Shown here: piece by piece, positions 167 to 56,234 of the stretch | Numbering within the stretch: position 1 is the stretch's first letter | Layout: each line of letters starts with the position of its first letter | DNA from: Candidatus Saccharimonadales bacterium | GTDB taxonomy: Bacteria > Patescibacteriota > Saccharimonadia > Saccharimonadales > CAIOMD01 | Assembly (NCBI GenBank): GCA_038245435.1 | Contig: JBBRSL010000001.1 | Coordinates: 1 to 59,897 of the forward strand | DNA length: 59,897 bases | Direction: 5' to 3' | Translations under genes and position numbers: made by a program | The notes under the pieces: model-generated | Told to the model about the DNA's origin: nothing | Seen by the model: the letters and a program-made list of their open reading frames with translations, nothing else | The model's database searches: none

Positions 167-195
167 TTGACAAAAAGCAATAAAAATAATAAAAT
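167..195 (+). promoter_or_regulatory. sigma70-type promoter (TTGACA-17-TAAAAT) facing GC-rich island 1
   Basis: TTGACA at 167-172, 17-nt spacer, TAAAAT at 190-195. It lies in low-GC DNA immediately upstream of the composition jump. Confidence 0.55.
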
Positions 196-334
196 TTTCA
201 CTTGAGGTGAGAGTAGTCTAGGGCAACCTAGCGGCCATAGGCAGGTGTACAAACCTCATACATGGTGACGGAGTTTCTGATCTCCAAAAAATCTGATGTA
301 CCTTCACCCCAAGGGCTACCCCATAGAGGGAACA

Positions 335-1441
335 ATGCCCGAGACTGGAAAGGTCAGCCAAGTGGCGACTACAACCGATCGACCCAGCATCAAGATCATC
401 AGCGGTGCGCTCGACGAGACCCCCACGGGGGACATCGTTCTGCGTGGCGTGGTCAGGTGTGACTCGCTCATCGACCTCCAGGTCGACGCCTACCAGCGCG
501 AGGCCATGGACAACGCCAAGGTGCGGCAGCTGCAGGCTGCCATCGCCAACGGTGGCGTCCCGGACATCGTGCTCGGCATGCGCGGTCAGGACTACTCCAC
601 CCGAGAGGCTGTGCTGTACCTCCGCGACGAGGTGTTCATCATCGACGGACTGCAGCGGGTGACCGCTGCGATGCGTGCGATGCAGGCCAACCCGGAGATG
701 AGGCCGCACCTCGGTGCGACCATCCACTTCGACACCACCAAGGAGTCGGAGCAGGAGATGTTCGAGAGGCTCAACCTGGGTCAGACCAGGCTCAGCCCGA
801 ACGTCACCCTGAGGAACTTCAAGGACAAGGTGCCGGCGGTGCAGTGCTTGCACAAGCTGTCGGCGGACAAGAACTTCGTCCTCTACGAGCTGGTCTCGTG
901 GGACCAGAACATGAAGCGTGGACAGCTCATCACGGCCAACACCTTCATCAAGACGGCCGCGATGCTGCACAGTCATGCTGGTCCCGGTCGGACGTCCAAC
1001 GTCTCCGACCTGGCCAACGGTCTGGGCAAGATCCACGACAACGTGGGCAGGAACAACTTCATCCAGAACACGCGTCTGTTCTTCGAGGTCATCGACTCGT
1101 GCTTCGGCATCCGTCGTGTCACCTACAAGAACGGCGCATCGTTCATCAAGACGACGTTCCTGCTGCAGCTGGCGAAGGTCATGAGCGACCACACGAACTT
1201 CTGGGACGGCGACAAGCTCGTCCTGGACGCTCGGATGGTCAAGAAGCTCTCGACCTTCCCCATCTCCGATCCGCAGATCGTGCAGCTGTGCTCCTCCGGG
1301 GGTTCGGCTGGCCAGATCCTGTACATGCTGATCGTCGACCACATCAACCACGGCAAGCGCACCGGGCGACTGGTGTCGCGTCGTGGGGACGAGATGGACG
1401 ACATCGACATCACCGACGGCTATAACAACGGCGGTGAGTGA
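335..1441 (+). CDS. DGQHR/ParB-fold domain protein (DndB-like), GC-rich foreign gene
   Basis: ORF 296..1441. ATG at 335 is preceded by AGAGGG (325-330). Motifs YQRE, FIIDGLQRVTA and FERLNLGQTRLSP match the ParB/sulfiredoxin-fold DGQHR (DndB-like) family pattern. Third codon positions are strongly G/C-rich. Confidence 0.6.
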   Translation: MPETGKVSQVATTTDRPSIKIISGALDETPTGDIVLRGVVRCDSLIDLQVDAYQREAMDNAKVRQLQAAIANGGVPDIVLGMRGQDYSTREAVLYLRDEVFIIDGLQRVTAAMRAMQANPEMRPHLGATIHFDTTKESEQEMFERLNLGQTRLSPNVTLRNFKDKVPAVQCLHKLSADKNFVLYELVSWDQNMKRGQLITANTFIKTAAMLHSHAGPGRTSNVSDLANGLGKIHDNVGRNNFIQNTRLFFEVIDSCFGIRRVTYKNGASFIKTTFLLQLAKVMSDHTNFWDGDKLVLDARMVKKLSTFPISDPQIVQLCSSGGSAGQILYMLIVDHINHGKRTGRLVSRRGDEMDDIDITDGYNNGGE

Positions 1442-2100
1442 TGTACGAAGCACGTGAGTGCGTTGCCCGGCTGGTCAACAACCAGCCGGGCGCGTACAGT
1501 TACCTCGCGAAGTTCTGTGAGGTGGAGCCGGCCACAGTGCTCAGTTGGACTGGTGGCAAGTTCTTCCCCAAGGGGGAGACTCTGGTGCGGCTCTACGTGG
1601 CCCTCTACGTGGTGGACATCGAGTTTATCGAGTGGTCTCGGATGTCCAAGCAGTCCCGTCTGCTGGCCAAACTCATCGCGTTCAGGATCATGCCAACCTT
1701 GGAGTTGCAGCGCGAACTGAACTACGCCGATATGAAGGGAGTCTATGACTTCATTCTGCGGGGTAGGGATGCTCAGCGTGAGCGGCTCTACAAGATCGAC
1801 AAGCTTGTCGATCGTTACGACGACGAGACTCGTCGAGACGAGCAAGAACTTCGTGAAGCTCTCGCTGCGGACTTCTCATCGACTGCGGCTTCTGCCGTGG
1901 AAGATCGAGTTGATGTAGCGATGGGCAGCAACGAAACAGTGTTGTCTGCAGCGCTCGTGCACTTAGTCATGGCGCTTGATGCCATGGCTCGGGCGGCCGA
2001 CGCAGACCCGTCTCGCGATCACATCGCACAGGTGCTCACCGAAGAGCTTCCGCCTGGACTCGCCAAGAGCGTGTCCGAGTGGCTCGACGGTATCGCCTAA
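1441..2100 (+). CDS. HTH (XRE-like) domain protein, partner of the DGQHR protein
   Basis: ATG at 1441 overlaps the upstream TGA (TGATG), which suggests translational coupling. The N-terminus YSYLAKFCEVEPATVLSWTGGKFFPKGETLVRL looks like an XRE-type helix-turn-helix. The remainder is helical and acidic with no recognised domain. Confidence 0.5.
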   Translation: MYEARECVARLVNNQPGAYSYLAKFCEVEPATVLSWTGGKFFPKGETLVRLYVALYVVDIEFIEWSRMSKQSRLLAKLIAFRIMPTLELQRELNYADMKGVYDFILRGRDAQRERLYKIDKLVDRYDDETRRDEQELREALAADFSSTAASAVEDRVDVAMGSNETVLSAALVHLVMALDAMARAADADPSRDHIAQVLTEELPPGLAKSVSEWLDGIA

Positions 2101-2165
2101 ACCGCTGACTGACGGTATCAGTCACAAGCGTAGCTTAGCTGCGAAGTCCTTGGAAATTCCCGGGC

Positions 2166-2194
2166 CCCCACACCTTAATTGGTGTGGGGTTTTT
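2166..2194 (+). terminator. intrinsic terminator closing island 1
   Basis: ccccacacc-ttaatt-ggtgtgggg followed by ttttt. Confidence 0.7.
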
Positions 2195-2239
2195 CATTTT
2201 AAGGTGCATGTTAAGCACAAGCACTAATATAATGATTTG

Positions 2240-39315: not shown

Positions 39316-41067
39316 ATGGAATCAAACCCTAAAACCCAGGTAGTTGAACGCTTAAAAGAAGCACAAAATGTGCTGGTAACGGTTAGCGCGAATCCAAGCG
39401 TTGATCAGCTAGCCGCCGCCATTGGTTTTACGCTGATGATGAACAAACTGGGCAAGCATGCAACGGCTGTATTTAGTGGTAACGTGCCAAGTACGCTTGA
39501 GTTTTTGAAGCCAGAGGCAACACTTGAACAAAACACTGACAGTCTACGAGATTTTATTATTTCACTCGATAAAGCTAAAGCCGACAAGCTGCGTTATAAA
39601 GTTGAAGATGATTTTGTAAAAATATTCATTACTCCATATCGAACGAGTTTAACGAGTGATGACCTTAATTTTAGCCAGGGCGATTTTAACGTTGATGTTG
39701 TGATGGCGCTTGGCGTGGATCAACGCGACCACGTTGATCAAGCGATTTTAGAACACGGCCGAATTTTGCACGACGCTACTGTTATTGGGGTAATGGCTGG
39801 GCCAAACCAAGTTGACGTTGGTAGCATTAATTGGCAGGATCCTGCAGCGAGTAGTTTATGCGAAATGCTTGTGAGCATTAGTGAATCATTTCAGAGCGGT
39901 CTACTTGATGGCCAAATGGCAACTGCATATCTTACTGGTATCGTTGCCGAAACAGAACGCTTTAGTAACGACAAAACAAGCCCGAAGGTTATGACCATGA
40001 GCGCCCAACTTATGGCAGCCGGCGCCAACCAGCAGCTTATTGCAACGCAACTTACACAGGCAGAACCTGAGTTCTCAGCAGATTTGCCAGCACCAGTAGA
40101 ATACGGAGAACCATCTGACCCGAACGAAGCGGTGCTCGATTTACACCATGAAGATGATGATATCCATATCGATGAACACGGACAAATGGAGACGCACGAA
40201 GAACTAGCTCAGGCCGTGAATGATGTACAGCAAACTGCTTCGAACTCGCACAGAATTATTGAACCACTACATGACGGACACGAGCAACAAGCGGAGCCAA
40301 CGCAACCTGCTGAGCCGGTGCAAGAAACGAGCCGCTATATTTATGAACCACCATCAAATGGCGGTACATTAACCGCAAGCGGGCAACCAGAAAACTTTGA
40401 TCCGAGTACCGACCCGATGAGCGCGACTCCTCAATATAATCTCAATACTCAAGAACACGAAAAGTCAGTTGTTTCACCGCTGTTAGGAGTTACGGATGAT
40501 GCCGAATCAGTACAAGCACCAAGCATGCCTTCTACCGAAACTCCACTGTTATCGTCTGATGGTGAGACCGACCAGAACCCTGTATCGGAGCCTGATCCAA
40601 ATGCAGATATACCCGCAGCGAGTGACGATGTAGAGTCAGATATCCCAGTTATCGATAAACTCGGGCCTGAAGTACATGCACAAGATACATTAGCTGATAT
40701 TGAAAATGCCGTACAAGATTTTAGCGGTACTGCACCGCATCCAGCTTCGGAACCAGATCTGAATGCTGATGCCGCTCGACAAGCCGTCATGGACGCGGTG
40801 CAGGCAGGTGGGTTTGATGCAAATCGTCCTGATCCAATACAGGCTTTAAACGCCCAAGAATTTATCGAAACTCCAGCTCCACAGTTTGAAAGTCCTGCTC
40901 CTGTAGCAGAGCCAACTGCAGAACCGATTATCGAACCTACCGTGCCGCCATCTGTACCAGAGATATCTCCAGATGCGCCACCAAGCGTGCCGCCACCAAT
41001 GTTGCCGCAGTTCCCAATTCCGGGTGCTGAAGTTTACGAACCAGATCAAGATCCAAAAAATCAGTAG
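39316..41067 (+). CDS. DHH-family phosphoesterase homolog with degenerate catalytic motifs and a long acidic/Pro-rich tail
   Basis: The N-terminal 240 aa follow the NrnA/DHH-DHHA1 layout (VTVSANPSVDQLAAAIGF..., ATAYLTGIVAETERFSN), but the DxD and DHH positions are replaced. The C-terminal 330 aa or so is low-complexity and rich in D, E, P, Q and A. Confidence 0.4.
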   Translation: MESNPKTQVVERLKEAQNVLVTVSANPSVDQLAAAIGFTLMMNKLGKHATAVFSGNVPSTLEFLKPEATLEQNTDSLRDFIISLDKAKADKLRYKVEDDFVKIFITPYRTSLTSDDLNFSQGDFNVDVVMALGVDQRDHVDQAILEHGRILHDATVIGVMAGPNQVDVGSINWQDPAASSLCEMLVSISESFQSGLLDGQMATAYLTGIVAETERFSNDKTSPKVMTMSAQLMAAGANQQLIATQLTQAEPEFSADLPAPVEYGEPSDPNEAVLDLHHEDDDIHIDEHGQMETHEELAQAVNDVQQTASNSHRIIEPLHDGHEQQAEPTQPAEPVQETSRYIYEPPSNGGTLTASGQPENFDPSTDPMSATPQYNLNTQEHEKSVVSPLLGVTDDAESVQAPSMPSTETPLLSSDGETDQNPVSEPDPNADIPAASDDVESDIPVIDKLGPEVHAQDTLADIENAVQDFSGTAPHPASEPDLNADAARQAVMDAVQAGGFDANRPDPIQALNAQEFIETPAPQFESPAPVAEPTAEPIIEPTVPPSVPEISPDAPPSVPPPMLPQFPIPGAEVYEPDQDPKNQ

Positions 41068-54719: not shown

Positions 54720-56234
54720 GTGAACCGTTTCACCAAAAGGGTGGTAGTGGGCCTTGTGTTCGCTGCGCTCTTGTTTGGGTCTGGTGCAGCTTTGGCTGCT
54801 CCGGTTCAGGCTGCGACGTACGACCCGTCATTCGTGACGGCTAGCTACAGCAACCCTGTGTGTCTAAGCGGGGTACTCGACAACGACTCGACCGTCACGA
54901 GCTTCAACGCTCCTGGCGGGTTCGAGTCCATCACGTTCAGTCTTGACGGTGTAGCTCTCCCGGGCTACCCGTACGCACTCGCCACGGGTACGGAAGTTCG
55001 TTTCGACGATGTTGTCCCTGCCAATACGCTTGTGGGCAACCACACGCTGACGGTCGACAACTTCGGGTTCACGCTGGCGACCTACCCGTTCACGCTCGCT
55101 GAGCCCTGTGTGGCGGTCAGCCCGTCTGACTTCACGGCCAACCTCGACACTCAGTTCACTAGTCCTGACGGTTCGTTCGGACAGGTCCTTGAGCTCGGTA
55201 ACTTCAGTGAGGCCTCGCGCCAAGCTGTAGTCTGGGTGAACGATGTCCTGGTCTGGGCGCCTGTCTTGGCGGTGGGAGACTTCCCGACGTTCAAGCTGTC
55301 CATCCCGACCTGTCAGGCTTACAGCGTGAAGGTGAGTTTCGGGTTCCCCGATCTCGCTCTCGACACTGCTCAGCCCGCCTACGGGTGCAACACAGTCGAC
55401 GCCGCGAACTTCGTGGTTACGCCGAAGTCACCGGTTTGCTCAGTAGCCGTTCCGACACAGGAAACCTCCGTCACAAGTGCAGACCCTGTCTCTCGCTTTG
55501 TGAAGGTGACCTACGGCAACGGCGGTTACGAGTACACCGCATCTGGCACGATGGCGCAAGGTGAGATGCGTTCGTTCGTGGGGCAACTCCCCCCGGGCGA
55601 GGCGTATCGCATCTTCGTCTACGTTGATGACGAGCTTGTGTATAACCAGCTCCAGCCAGCGTTCAGTTGCGGCACGCCTCCAGTGCGACTGACTGGTCCG
55701 AGTATCTCGGGCAGGGCACAGGTTGGGTACGTCCTGACCTGCAACGTGTCGTACTCCGGTACGGCTCCGGTCATGGCTGCGTACAGGTGGTACCTCAACG
55801 GTGTGTTGACGGCGGGTTCATCCCGCACGCTCACGCTCACCGCTACCCACTACAACAAGCGGCTTGCTTGCGCATCCAGCGCCAGTAACGGCTTCGGTAG
55901 TGCACCATCCGCAACCAGCGCAGCCAGTGCTGTTGTGGTCCTCGGTTCGGCACTCAAGATCGTCGGTACCTACTACCCGAAGGTCACTGGCACAGTCCGG
56001 GTTGGCAAGACGGTCAAGGCGTATGTCGGCAAGTGGACTCCCGCTCCGACAAAGTACTTGTATCAGTGGTACAAGTACAGTGGCGGCAGGTGGGTGGCCA
56101 TCAAGTACGCGACCAAGTACTACTACGTCATTCCTCGGGCTCTGAAGGGCTACAAGATCGCTGTTCGCGTGACGGCTCTTAAGCCGGGCTATGCGAGCGG
56201 CGTTCGACTTTCTGCTGGCGTCCACGTTGGCTGA
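54720..56234 (+). CDS. secreted beta-rich protein with two C-terminal Ig-like repeats, GC-rich foreign gene
   Basis: GTG follows GAAGGGGGA. Signal peptide MNRFTKRVVVGLVFAALLFGSGAALAAPVQA-AT. There are Cys-delimited modules and two copies of the P.I.G...VG..L....G.W.....Y.W...G pattern (about 55695-55935 and 55971-56220). G/C dominates third codon positions. Confidence 0.65.
   Translation: MNRFTKRVVVGLVFAALLFGSGAALAAPVQAATYDPSFVTASYSNPVCLSGVLDNDSTVTSFNAPGGFESITFSLDGVALPGYPYALATGTEVRFDDVVPANTLVGNHTLTVDNFGFTLATYPFTLAEPCVAVSPSDFTANLDTQFTSPDGSFGQVLELGNFSEASRQAVVWVNDVLVWAPVLAVGDFPTFKLSIPTCQAYSVKVSFGFPDLALDTAQPAYGCNTVDAANFVVTPKSPVCSVAVPTQETSVTSADPVSRFVKVTYGNGGYEYTASGTMAQGEMRSFVGQLPPGEAYRIFVYVDDELVYNQLQPAFSCGTPPVRLTGPSISGRAQVGYVLTCNVSYSGTAPVMAAYRWYLNGVLTAGSSRTLTLTATHYNKRLACASSASNGFGSAPSATSAASAVVVLGSALKIVGTYYPKVTGTVRVGKTVKAYVGKWTPAPTKYLYQWYKYSGGRWVAIKYATKYYYVIPRALKGYKIAVRVTALKPGYASGVRLSAGVHVG

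What the first reader, a model, noticed from the sequence alone, without database searches (positions are those of the whole stretch)
196..2196. High-GC island 1: orphan DGQHR/ParB-fold (DndB-like) protein plus HTH partner, wired to a native-type promoter
Between the groEL terminator (131-156) and about nt 2196 the composition jumps from the window background (mid-40s % GC by eye) to clearly GC-rich DNA. Third codon positions are dominated by G/C (roughly 60 % GC by eye, not computed).

The island holds exactly two genes whose stop and start overlap (TGATG at 1439-1443):
- A protein of about 368 aa with ParB/sulfiredoxin-fold motifs of the DGQHR/DndB family (YQRE, FIIDGLQRVTA, FERLNLGQTRLSP).
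- A protein of about 219 aa with an XRE-like HTH at its N-terminus.

No dndCDE or ssp genes, methyltransferase, integrase or transposase is adjacent. A near-consensus promoter built from low-GC DNA (TTGACA-17-TAAAAT, 167-195) sits just outside the island, and a GC-rich hairpin plus T-run (2166-2194) closes it. The cassette therefore looks expressed rather than a dead remnant.

Inference: it was acquired laterally from a high-GC donor (Actinobacteria or their phages or plasmids). A stand-alone DndB-like plus HTH pair is a candidate DNA-surveillance/defence module or mobile-element maintenance module of unknown function.
Basis: partly seen in the sequence, partly recalled or inferred. Interest (0 to 1): 0.75.

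Follow-up and report, generated by a model that had tools for sequence, protein, structure and literature searches.

The report
GC-rich ParB-like operon with RNA leader
A real 2-kb GC-rich stretch in a Saccharibacteria genome is not a recent import from Actinobacteria but a long-resident operon: a DndB-like DNA-binding protein and its helix-turn-helix partner, preceded by a previously undescribed structured RNA leader, and kept GC-rich for reasons still unknown.

Summary
Window 196-2196 has 0.59 GC against 0.45 elsewhere, and gene A has GC3 of 0.88 against a median of 0.41. It holds two overlapping genes with a promoter and a terminator.

Gene A is a ParB/sulfiredoxin-fold protein on the DGQHR/DUF262/DndB branch, but it falls below every curated threshold. 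It belongs to a compact, unnamed family of about 525 clusters found in CPR bacteria and in uncultivated phages. Gene B is a fast-evolving partner with a weak XRE-type helix-turn-helix signal. It sits next to A in about 15 loci and is fused to it in one.

The cassette lies between groEL and the same downstream genes in related Saccharibacteria, and A diverges about as fast as those neighbours. Recent transfer from Actinobacteria is therefore not supported.

Two findings are new:
- GC excess is a family-wide trait in CPR genomes (55 of 61 loci, mean +0.09). A's GC stays near 0.57 whatever the host GC, whereas phage copies match their own genomes.
- A conserved, structured 5' leader of about 160 nt (hairpins P1-P4) precedes gene A. 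It shows covariation, has no Rfam match, and other CPR loci carry a second leader class.

The mechanism is inferred: an NTP-gated DNA-binding module under RNA-level control.

The parts
167..195 (+). Sigma-70-type promoter TTGACA-17-TAAAAT, made of AT-rich DNA; the transcription start is expected near 202
   Evidence: 11 of 12 matches. The syntenic locus L037 has an equivalent TTGACA-17-TAAAAT directly after its groEL terminator.
202..361 (+). Structured 5' leader RNA (type I). P1 is 218-222/227-231 with a GCAA loop. P2 is 234-237/263-266, plus 239-241/254-256. The P3 region is 270-296 with an A-run at 286-291. A single-stranded box UGUACCUUCAC lies at 297-307. P4 is 313-316/337-340 with an inner stem 319-321/328-330. 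The RBS GGAAAGG is at 347-353.
   Evidence: RNAalifold and pair counts on the sequence-based alignment A6: 98% paired, 9 of 13 pairs with compensatory changes, covariation 0.65 against 0.30 for shuffles. P4 seed: 86% paired, 9 of 12 pairs compensatory. The P4 model hits window 313-340 and lies only upstream of gene A in 22 loci out of 1.12 Mb searched. The leader is 88% identical to that of L007. There is no Rfam match.
362..1441 (+). Gene A, 359 aa from GTG 362 (an in-frame ATG at 335 would give 368 aa). It has an N-terminal ParB/sulfiredoxin-fold domain with YQRE and DGLQR (GxxRxxA-type) motifs, and a family-specific helical C-terminal domain with invariant H212, N245 and H336 (368-aa numbering).
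1441..2100 (+). Gene B, 219 aa, translationally coupled to A through TGATG. It has a conserved N-terminal domain of about 125 aa (XRE-like HTH; invariant W36, P43, G45, Y95), a variable low-complexity linker, and a C-terminal helical segment of about 55 aa.
   Evidence: A natural A-B fusion exists in L065.
2101..2165 (+). Conserved 3' UTR with two small hairpins (2106-2112/2118-2124 and 2129-2134/2138-2143)
   Evidence: 84% identical to L007, with compensated stem changes read from the sequences.
2166..2194 (+). Intrinsic terminator (9-bp GC-rich stem plus T-run) that ends the GC-rich transcription unit

Best explanation
The island is one conserved transcription unit that has long been resident in this Saccharibacteria lineage. 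Its order is: AT-rich sigma-70 promoter, a structured leader RNA of about 160 nt, gene A, gene B, a conserved 3' UTR and a terminator.

Shown:
- A folds as a ParB/sulfiredoxin-type nucleotide-binding domain of the DGQHR/DUF262/DndB branch, followed by a helical domain.
- B is its dedicated partner.
- The leader has evolutionarily conserved base-pairing on the sense strand.
- The unit is inherited together with its housekeeping neighbours.
- Its GC excess is a trait of the whole CPR branch of the family.

Inferred:
- A acts like DndB or ParB, as a nucleotide-triphosphate-gated DNA-binding switch.
- B supplies a helix-turn-helix, a flexible linker and a C-terminal helical (probably dimerising) segment. 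A plus B would then rebuild, on two polypeptides, the domain order of a ParB protein: NTPase domain, HTH, linker, C-terminal domain.
- The leader, whose last hairpin P4 ends 6 nt before the ribosome-binding site, controls translation or mRNA stability, either through binding of A or B (autoregulation) or through a small ligand.
- Phage relatives sit in replication/recombination modules, so the likely biological role is control or surveillance of replicating or incoming DNA.
- The high GC3 is actively maintained by a gene-specific force of unknown nature and is not a relic of transfer.
For: Fold:
- The AF2 model has pLDDT 86.
- Foldseek probability is about 1.0 to pNOB8 ParB-N, ParB-CDP, PadC, Noc, BrxU and Srx.
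- There are whole-length matches to viral DndB-like and GmrSD_N proteins, with TMt up to 0.66.
- Weak DGQHR hits occur in 16 of 26 family members and GmrSD_N hits in 8 of 26.

A-B partnership:
- The stop and start codons overlap.
- B-type genes are adjacent to A in about 15 loci, and the two are fused in L065.
- B gives HTH_3 hits in 3 of 13 members, and its profile aligns to the HTH of P22 C2 and 3bs3.

Leader:
- Covariation statistics support the structure.
- The P4 model hits only upstream of A, in 22 loci including two that were not in the seed.
- In a metagenome pattern scan, all 4 matches with a proper inner stem have A downstream.
- The leader is 88% identical between the window and L007, against 61% at third codon positions of A.
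- G-U pairs place the structure on the sense strand.

Residence: synteny is shared, and pairwise identities of A track those of SIS (r = 0.70).

GC:
- 55 of 61 loci are richer than their flanks.
- The regression slope is 0.35 and the offset falls from +0.16 to +0.04 as host GC rises.
- dS is not depressed.
- Third positions are largely re-sampled between the window and L007, yet GC3 stays at 0.77-0.89.

Phage context.
Against: - No biochemical function is shown.
- All family-model hits are below curated cut-offs.
- The C-terminal domain of A has no structural match.
- The structure of B could not be modelled (pLDDT 48), and its HTH assignment rests on weak hits.
- Most CPR loci have A without B, so B is not essential to the family.
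- No terminator or anti-Shine-Dalgarno expression platform was found in the leader, so how it regulates is unknown.
- The P4 seed sequences were hand-picked, which inflates its pairing statistics.
- The deep phylogeny is unresolved and phage clades interleave with CPR clades, so horizontal spread within CPR cannot be excluded as a contributor to the GC pattern.
Confidence: 0.5

Rival explanations
1. One reading: the cassette was recently acquired from a high-GC donor (Actinobacteria or their phages or plasmids), and its GC content is the donor's signature.
For: The GC and GC3 contrast is real. Cultivated Saccharibacteria live on Actinobacteria (PMC10633639). Relatives exist on high-GC uncultivated viral contigs, where they match the local GC.
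Against: - Named homologs are CPR bacteria, not Actinobacteria.
- The position is syntenic in five related genomes, and A's divergence equals that of its neighbours.
- The same GC excess occurs in 55 of 61 CPR loci.
- Third positions have turned over while GC3 stayed high.
- Phage copies lack the CPR-specific leader and B.
- There is no match in 50,697 isolated phages or 72,556 plasmids.
- Arg codon use (AGG and CGT together 14 of 25) is not typical of Actinobacteria (count; the comparison is from my own knowledge).
Confidence: 0.07
2. The leader-A(-B) unit is a small mobile cassette that circulates among CPR lineages from a GC-rich pool, which may be fed by phages. It is exchanged often enough that its composition reflects the pool and not the host, and the groEL-SIS junction is a recurrent landing or exchange site.
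For: - A's GC is nearly constant whatever the host GC (slope 0.35).
- The family is sporadically distributed and sits in varied genomic contexts.
- The cassette is inverted in L018, and B is absent in L020 and L037 at the same junction.
- A serine-recombinase-like gene neighbours A in L036, and a T4SS-type ATPase does so in L005/L023.
- Phage and CPR clades interleave.
- A 12-nt imperfect inverted repeat flanks the cassette.
Against: - The window and L007 share the cassette with the same divergence as neighbouring genes (70% against 70%), so there has been no replacement since their split, yet GC3 stays at 0.77-0.89.
- No integrase, transposase or target-site duplication is present at the window locus.
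- The flanking inverted repeat is short, AT-rich and could be chance.
Confidence: 0.2
3. The conserved 'hairpins' upstream of A are DNA operators (palindromes) bound by B or A, and not RNA structure. The apparent covariation then reflects co-evolution of the two half-sites with the protein.
For: P1 is a near-perfect palindrome lying 16-30 nt downstream of the predicted transcription start. DndB autoregulates by binding palindromic DNA in its own promoter region (PMC4507180). The P1-P3 domain is seen mainly in the clade that has B.
Against: - Loop lengths vary from 4 to 8 nt in P1 and from 3 to more than 25 nt in P4, which would break half-site spacing.
- G-U pairs occur on the sense strand, for example in 5 of 9 sequences at the first P2 pair.
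- P4 has asymmetric bulges with strand-specific conserved sequence (GCUAU / AGCUWA).
- P4 occurs in many loci that lack B.
Confidence: 0.12
4. The long antisense ORF (218-1453, minus strand, 411 codons) is a real overlapping gene, and its need for an open frame explains the avoidance of A-ending codons.
For: The ORF spans the whole of gene A in register. TTA, CTA and TCA are absent from A. Pooled over the family, CTA plus TCA make up 5.6% of their codon families against 12.6% A-ending use in control fourfold families.
Against: Homologs with lower GC3 carry 7-13 stops in that frame. An open antisense frame is the expected by-product of 2% A at third positions. CTA and TCA are commonly rare codons in any case (my own knowledge).
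Confidence: 0.03
5. Assembly chimera: the GC-rich block was mis-joined into a low-GC contig.
For: None beyond the sharp change in composition.
Against: Independent assemblies show the same gene order and the same GC contrast (L007, L013, L020, L037, and L001-L004 from four sources).
Confidence: 0.01

Closest known systems
DndB (regulator of the dnd DNA-phosphorothioation operon; PF14072 / TIGR03233) and the wider DGQHR domain (TIGR03187)
   Same: Both have a ParB/Srx-fold N-terminal domain with a DGxxR motif, followed by a helical domain, and are similar in size (about 350 aa). A gives weak profile hits to DGQHR over residues 98-217, and its model matches viral 'DNA-sulfur modification-associated' proteins. 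DndB is an ATP-modulated, autoregulating DNA-binding protein (PMC4507180, PMC10853773), which is the working model used here.
   Different: A scores far below the curated cut-offs (14 bits against 328 and 29; 28.6 against 58.85). The motif reads DGLQR, not DGQHR. There is no dndCDE, ssp or dpd linkage in the window neighbourhood or in more than 60 related loci. A has its own partner (B) and its own RNA leader. The family is restricted to CPR bacteria and uncultivated phages.
DUF262 / GmrSD_N NTPase domain of type IV restriction enzymes (GmrSD, BrxU, SspE)
   Same: The N-terminal motifs follow the DUF262 pattern ((F/Y)QR, DGxQR, F..LN....LS) (PMC4619093). PF03235 is the best Pfam hit, and BrxU appears in the fold search.
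   Different: No DUF1524/HNH nuclease domain is detected. The C-terminal half is a different helical domain with no detectable relatives. The PF03235 score is below the gathering threshold.
Chromosomal and plasmid ParB, Noc and KorB (CTP-gated DNA clamps)
   Same: The top structural matches are ParB N-domains, including the CDP-bound form. The motif is of the GxxRxxA type. A plus B together reproduce the ParB domain order (NTPase, HTH, linker, C-terminal helices), and the L065 fusion places them in that order.
   Different: The domains lie on two polypeptides. No ParA partner and no parS-like repeats were found in or around the cassette. Most family members lack B altogether.
Cis-regulatory 5' leaders (autoregulatory protein-binding leaders and riboswitches)
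   Same: The leader is multi-hairpin with covariation and conserved unpaired nucleotides. It lies between the promoter and the RBS and is tied to a single gene family. Two structurally different classes precede orthologous genes, as happens with several riboswitch ligands.
   Different: It matches none of the 4,227 Rfam families. No ligand, no expression platform and no binding protein are known.

Membership tests
ParB/sulfiredoxin superfamily | ParB-N/Srx alpha-beta fold | tested here: met
   The AF2 model has pLDDT 86. Foldseek probability is 0.97-1.0 to 5k5d, 6sdk, 6ryk, 7ng0 and 3cyi, although E-values are only about 1e-3 and the match is at domain level. The viral library gives E-values down to 1.6e-10.
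ParB/sulfiredoxin superfamily | Phosphate-binding GxxR(xxA) motif | tested here: met
   D104-G-L-Q-R108-V-T-A111 is invariant or nearly so in 26 sequences.
ParB/sulfiredoxin superfamily | NTP binding or hydrolysis | not testable with these tools
   Requires biochemistry.
DGQHR domain (TIGR03187) | Score at or above the curated cut-off (58.85 bits) | tested here: not met
   The score is 28.6 bits, E = 1.1e-6. 16 of 26 family members give similar sub-threshold hits.
DndB (TIGR03233 / PF14072) | Score at or above the curated cut-off | tested here: not met
   14.1 bits against 328, and 14.7 against 29.1. Only 1 of 26 members reaches E < 0.01.
DndB (TIGR03233 / PF14072) | Operon linkage to dndCDE (or sspABCD, or dpd) | tested here: not met
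   The neighbours in the window are groEL, a small membrane protein, orf178, a SIS-domain protein and an ABC transporter. Neighbour clustering over about 60 loci finds only B and the local synteny genes.
GmrSD / DUF262-DUF1524 type IV restriction enzymes | PF03235 at or above the gathering score | tested here: not met
   24.1 bits against 33.2. 8 of 26 members reach E < 0.01.
GmrSD / DUF262-DUF1524 type IV restriction enzymes | C-terminal DUF1524 His-Me nuclease domain | tested here: not met
   There is no Pfam, NCBIfam or PADLOC hit on residues 155-368, and no structural match to a nuclease.
Canonical ParB partition proteins | HTH and C-terminal dimerisation domain in the same chain, with a ParA partner and parS sites | tested here: not met
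   A has no HTH, no ParA gene is adjacent, and there are no palindromic or iterated sites. The HTH, linker and C-terminal helices are carried by the separate protein B.
XRE/Cro-C1 helix-turn-helix (for B) | Significant match to HTH_3 or to solved XRE-type domains | tested here: inconclusive
   The window's B has no hit. 3 of 13 orthologs hit HTH_3, best E = 0.0027. The profile against PDB gives 3bs3 at E = 0.05 and P22 C2 at E = 0.14, over the expected HTH span. The structure model is unusable.
Any Rfam family (for the leader) | Covariance-model match | tested here: not met
   Nothing overlaps the leader at E <= 10 in the window, L012 or L056. At gathering thresholds the whole window yields only a tRNA.
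Riboswitch | Conserved structure with covariation, upstream of a coherent gene set | tested here: met
Riboswitch | Ligand binding and a ligand-responsive expression platform | tested here: inconclusive
   No terminator and no conserved anti-SD pairing were found by inspection. Ligand binding cannot be tested here.
Known anti-phage defence systems (PADLOC) | Match to a defence-system protein model | tested here: not met
   There are only marginal hits, to NsnA (E = 0.0024) and DzbA (E = 0.031), and none for B.

The most novel reading that the evidence does not exclude
The CPR-specific leader, in at least two structural classes upstream of orthologous genes, is a new riboswitch-like sensor. It controls a DndB-like NTPase, and the transcription unit itself is under selection for nucleic-acid composition: it is held near 57% GC in hosts ranging from 33 to 58% GC. 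That would mean the DNA or the mRNA of the operon is itself a functional component. It could, for example, be a self-marking or titration platform for the ParB-like protein, or an unusually stable message in an AU-rich cell.
Probability: 0.15. Interest if true: 0.85.

Novelty: new variant of a known kind. Interest (0 to 1): 0.62.

Why it matters
CPR bacteria make up a large share of bacterial diversity, and few of their regulatory RNAs or DNA-handling accessory systems have been characterised.

- **A new operon type.** This locus defines an unnamed ParB/DndB-like family shared by CPR bacteria and uncultivated phages, a dedicated HTH partner, and candidate cis-regulatory RNA motifs that are missing from Rfam.
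- **A caution for HGT calls.** A sharp GC island need not mean recent horizontal transfer. This one is syntenic, co-diverges with its neighbours, and is GC-rich in dozens of genomes. That points to a gene-specific compositional force that current models (amelioration, translational selection, biased gene conversion) do not obviously explain.
- **Testability.** Saccharibacteria are now genetically tractable (PMC10633639), so the predictions can be tested.

Tried and rejected
- **Overlapping antisense gene** as the cause of high GC3: rejected, because homologs with lower GC3 carry stops in that frame.
- **Extra constraint on synonymous sites** (low dS): not seen.
- **parS-like palindromes or iterons inside the island:** none found.
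- **Anti-Shine-Dalgarno pairing** from the P3 loop or the single-stranded box: not conserved across loci (inspection).
- **A preQ1-like or other known riboswitch:** no Rfam hit.
- **A second regulon member:** weaker P4-model hits in L019, L021 and L022 turned out to lie on the antisense strand of 23S rRNA.
- **B homologs through the indexed protein search:** only a self-hit and one relative were returned. They had to be recovered from the loci with a custom HMM.
- **A PDB sequence-profile search for A:** no hits.
- **Isolated phages and plasmids:** no relatives.
- **A generic hairpin finder for P4:** too permissive, so I replaced it with hand curation plus a covariance model.
- **Column-based scoring of P3:** failed because MAFFT misaligns it. 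P3 therefore rests on direct reading of the sequences.
Full report
**1. The observation**

The compositional island is real. Window 196-2196 has GC 0.593 against 0.451 for the rest of the 59.9-kb window. Two-kb windows elsewhere have mean 0.448 and SD 0.023, and the only other outlier is a second island near 55 kb.

The excess sits at synonymous sites. Gene A has GC1 0.58, GC2 0.39 and GC3 0.88, and gene B has GC3 0.70. The median GC3 over 52 proxy genes is 0.41, SD 0.07. Third positions of A are 50% C, 39% G, 9% T and 2% A.

The island holds two genes whose stop and start overlap (TGATG, 1439-1443).

One correction concerns the start of A, which is most likely GTG at 362 (RBS GGAAAGG at 347-353, giving 359 aa).
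- This register matches the RBS-start spacing in all related loci.
- It also matches the N-termini called for the closest homologs (MGNDQ.SIK).
- In L007 the equivalent of ATG 335 is out of frame.

**2. The proteins**

A gets only sub-threshold hits:
- GmrSD_N/DUF262: 24 bits against a cut-off of 33.
- DGQHR (TIGR03187): 28.6 bits against 58.85.
- DndB: 14 bits.
- A ParB-like PHROG: E = 7e-6.

At family level, 16 of 26 members touch DGQHR, 8 of 26 touch GmrSD_N and 1 of 26 touches DndB.

An AlphaFold model built on 26 homologs is confident (pLDDT 86, pTM 0.73).
- Its N-terminal half matches ParB N-domains (pNOB8 ParB, ParB-CDP, PadC, Noc), BrxU and sulfiredoxin. Probability is about 1 but E-values are modest.
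- Against viral models it matches DndB-like 'sulfur modification' proteins and GmrSD_N proteins over most of its length (TMt up to 0.66, best E = 1.6e-10).
- The motifs YQRE, DGLQR (GxxRxxA type) and F..LN....LS are invariant or nearly so.
- The C-terminal helical half (invariant H212, N245, H336) has no match.

An exhaustive profile search finds a compact family: 525 clusters at 50% identity with E <= 1e-3. Almost all are 340-390 aa and match over their full length. A is therefore a new family on the DGQHR/DUF262/DndB branch of the ParB/Srx superfamily. It is not a DndB, a GmrSD or a canonical ParB.

B evolves fast, and the indexed search found only itself. Direct comparison with downstream genes in related loci shows three parts:
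- a conserved N-terminal domain of about 125 aa (27-33% identity);
- a variable low-complexity linker;
- a C-terminal helical segment of about 55 aa.

A custom HMM finds B-type genes next to A in about 15 loci, one lying 1.7 kb away, and one fused to A in a single ORF in a complete genome (L065).

HTH support is weak but consistent. HTH_3 hits occur in 3 of 13 orthologs, and the profile aligns to the HTH of P22 C2 and 3bs3. The structure prediction failed for lack of permitted homologs.

**3. Origin**

The close homologs that carry names are Saccharibacteria and other CPR phyla.

The window's arrangement is groEL -> A-B -> orf163 -> orf178(-) -> SIS -> ABC permease(-) -> ABC ATPase(-).
- It recurs in L007, L013, L020 and L037. 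L037 has groEL directly upstream, and L020 and L037 lack B.
- It recurs in L018 with the cassette inverted between the same landmarks.

Pairwise identities of A resemble those of SIS and correlate with them (r = 0.70, 15 pairs). For the window against L007, both are 70%.

Independent assemblies with the same order and the same GC contrast exclude a chimera.

**4. The GC excess is a family trait**

In 61 species-level genomes, A is richer in GC than its flanks in 55. Over the 56 loci with adequate flanks the mean offset is +0.095 and the Wilcoxon p is 4e-10.

A's GC stays near 0.55-0.59 while host GC ranges from 0.33 to 0.58. The regression slope is 0.35, and the offset falls from +0.16 in the lowest-GC hosts to +0.04 in the highest.

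The excess is not a relic.
- Between the syntenic pair, window and L007, third positions of A are only 61% identical, where composition alone would give 36%.
- Fourfold sites within identical residues agree in 52% of cases.
- Even so, GC3 is 0.89 and 0.77, against 0.41 and 0.35 for SIS.
- dS of A is not lower than that of its neighbours in closer genome pairs. The sites are therefore not individually constrained. A directional force maintains the composition.

The GC-rich stretch coincides with the transcription unit, and the promoter is AT-rich. I could not identify the force. An antisense overlapping gene is rejected, and Arg codon use is not typical of Actinobacteria (count; comparison from my own knowledge).

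**5. A phage branch**

Thirty-eight IMG/VR contigs encode relatives at 32-45% identity.
- There the gene matches its surroundings in GC (mean difference +0.002).
- It lacks both B and the leader.
- It sits in replication/recombination modules. In one group the order is ParB-like partition protein (overlapping A's start), A, exonuclease, Sak4-like annealase, SSB, ERCC4 nuclease and an ExoV/Dda-like helicase. Another group has GcrA-like, RusA and HNH genes.

An NJ tree interleaves phage and CPR clades on long, unresolved branches. No relative exists among 50,697 isolated phages or 72,556 plasmids.

**6. The leader RNA**

The roughly 160 nt between the promoter and gene A are conserved across distant loci, with compensatory changes.

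On a purely sequence-based alignment of nine leaders, P1, the outer part of P2 and the outer part of P4 behave as follows:
- They are 98% paired.
- Nine of 13 pairs show double changes.
- The covariation score is 0.65, against 0.30 for shuffles (0 of 500 reach it) and at most 0.13 for slid registers.

G-U pairs place the structure on the sense strand. P3 covaries on direct reading: UUGGU/ACCAA, UCGGU/ACCGA, CAGAU/AUCUG, ACCAU/AUGGU and CUGGU/ACCAG.

P4 is the most widespread element. It has an outer stem, a GCUAU bulge, an inner CCC/GGG stem, AGCUWA, and then the closing outer stem, and it ends 6-10 nt before the RBS.
- A 21-sequence seed is 86% paired, with 9 of 12 pairs compensatory. This seed was hand-picked.
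- The covariance model hits 22 loci at E < 0.03 in 1.12 Mb searched on both strands. Every hit lies immediately upstream of A, and two were not in the seed.
- The only other weak hits are on the antisense strand of 23S rRNA.
- In a metagenome pattern scan, the four matches with a proper inner stem all precede an A homolog.

The leader is 88% identical between the window and L007. That exceeds codon positions 1 and 2 of A (76% and 82%). The 3' UTR is 84% identical, with compensated hairpins.

A homolog's annotated N-terminal extension (P0003, 'MYLHPKGYP...') is a translation of this leader across shifting frames. This confirms that the conservation is at the nucleotide level.

A second leader class, CUCGRACAUAAGGC-hairpin-ACUGCUUCGRG, precedes A in another CPR clade and also covaries. 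L037 has yet another leader. None of them matches Rfam, and no paper in the searched library describes the protein family or the RNA.

**7. Mechanism (inferred)**

By analogy with DndB and ParB, A is taken to be an NTP-gated DNA-binding switch.

B contributes an HTH, a flexible linker and C-terminal helices. A plus B thus reproduce the domain order of ParB on two chains. Translational coupling and the natural fusion argue for a physical complex.

The leader probably sets translation or mRNA stability, through autoregulatory binding or through a ligand. The phage context suggests a role in handling replicating or incoming DNA.

These steps are hypotheses. What is shown is the fold, the partnership, the conserved RNA structure, the synteny and the family-wide GC excess.

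**8. Verdict**

The locus is a new variant within a known superfamily. It adds an undescribed cis-regulatory RNA and an unexplained, actively maintained GC excess, which together make it moderately to highly interesting.

Noticed in passing
window 54720-56234 (+): A second high-GC island (GC about 0.60, GC3 0.71). It encodes a 504-aa protein with a signal-peptide-like N-terminus and repeated Ig-like segments. Its codon usage resembles that of genes A and B (few A-ending codons).
   Followed up: partly
window 173-184 and 2236-2247: A 12-nt imperfect inverted repeat (AAAAGCAATAAA / TTTGTTGCTTTT) brackets the cassette. In L018 the cassette is inverted between the same flanking genes. The repeat could be chance in AT-rich DNA or a substrate for inversion.
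   Followed up: no
L016, L027, L029, L035, L038, L039, L046, L056, L060 (about 60-130 nt upstream of the gene A homolog): A second structured leader class, CUCGRACAUAAGGC-hairpin-ACUGCUUCGRG. Its outer helix is 96% paired and 4 of 6 pairs have compensatory changes. It has no Rfam match. The loci that carry it form one clade of the A tree.
   Followed up: partly
L065:9917-11575: In a complete CPR genome (CP064960.1), A and the N-terminal domain of B are fused in a single ORF. B's linker and C-terminal segment are missing.
   Followed up: partly
L083, L084, L087, L088, L090, L107 (around 6.5-11.5 kb): In uncultivated phages, a classical ParB-like partition protein ends 6-9 nt inside the start of the A homolog. 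Two ParB/Srx-fold proteins are therefore translationally coupled, at the head of a recombination module (exonuclease, Sak4, SSB, ERCC4, ExoV/Dda helicase).
   Followed up: partly
L005/L023 (4365-7013) and the contig of P0005: In two unrelated Saccharibacteria contigs, the A-B pair lies directly downstream of an ATPase of about 870 aa with DUF8128, TrwB and TraG-like domains (a T4SS coupling-protein type).
   Followed up: no
L036:10977-11780: The gene next to the A homolog in this contig has a serine-recombinase-like N-terminus (judged by eye). The contig is labelled Acidiferrales and has 0.58 GC. This is one of the few hints of mobility.
   Followed up: no
window 1441-2100: The collection's own gene call for B is only 122 aa (P0121, starting at the internal Met of 'MKGVYDF'). 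Orthologs show that the full 219-aa ORF, including the conserved HTH-like N-domain, is the real gene.
   Followed up: yes
window 39316-41067: A mild GC bump (0.50) with strong AT skew. It corresponds to the acidic, proline-rich, low-complexity C-terminal tail of a 583-aa protein. It is not an island of the same kind.
   Followed up: partly
L009:12486-13947: In the L009/L011 genome pair, the least conserved neighbouring genes (51-66% aa identity) also have raised GC3 (0.50 against about 0.37). Fast-evolving accessory genes in these CPR genomes may generally be richer in GC.
   Followed up: no
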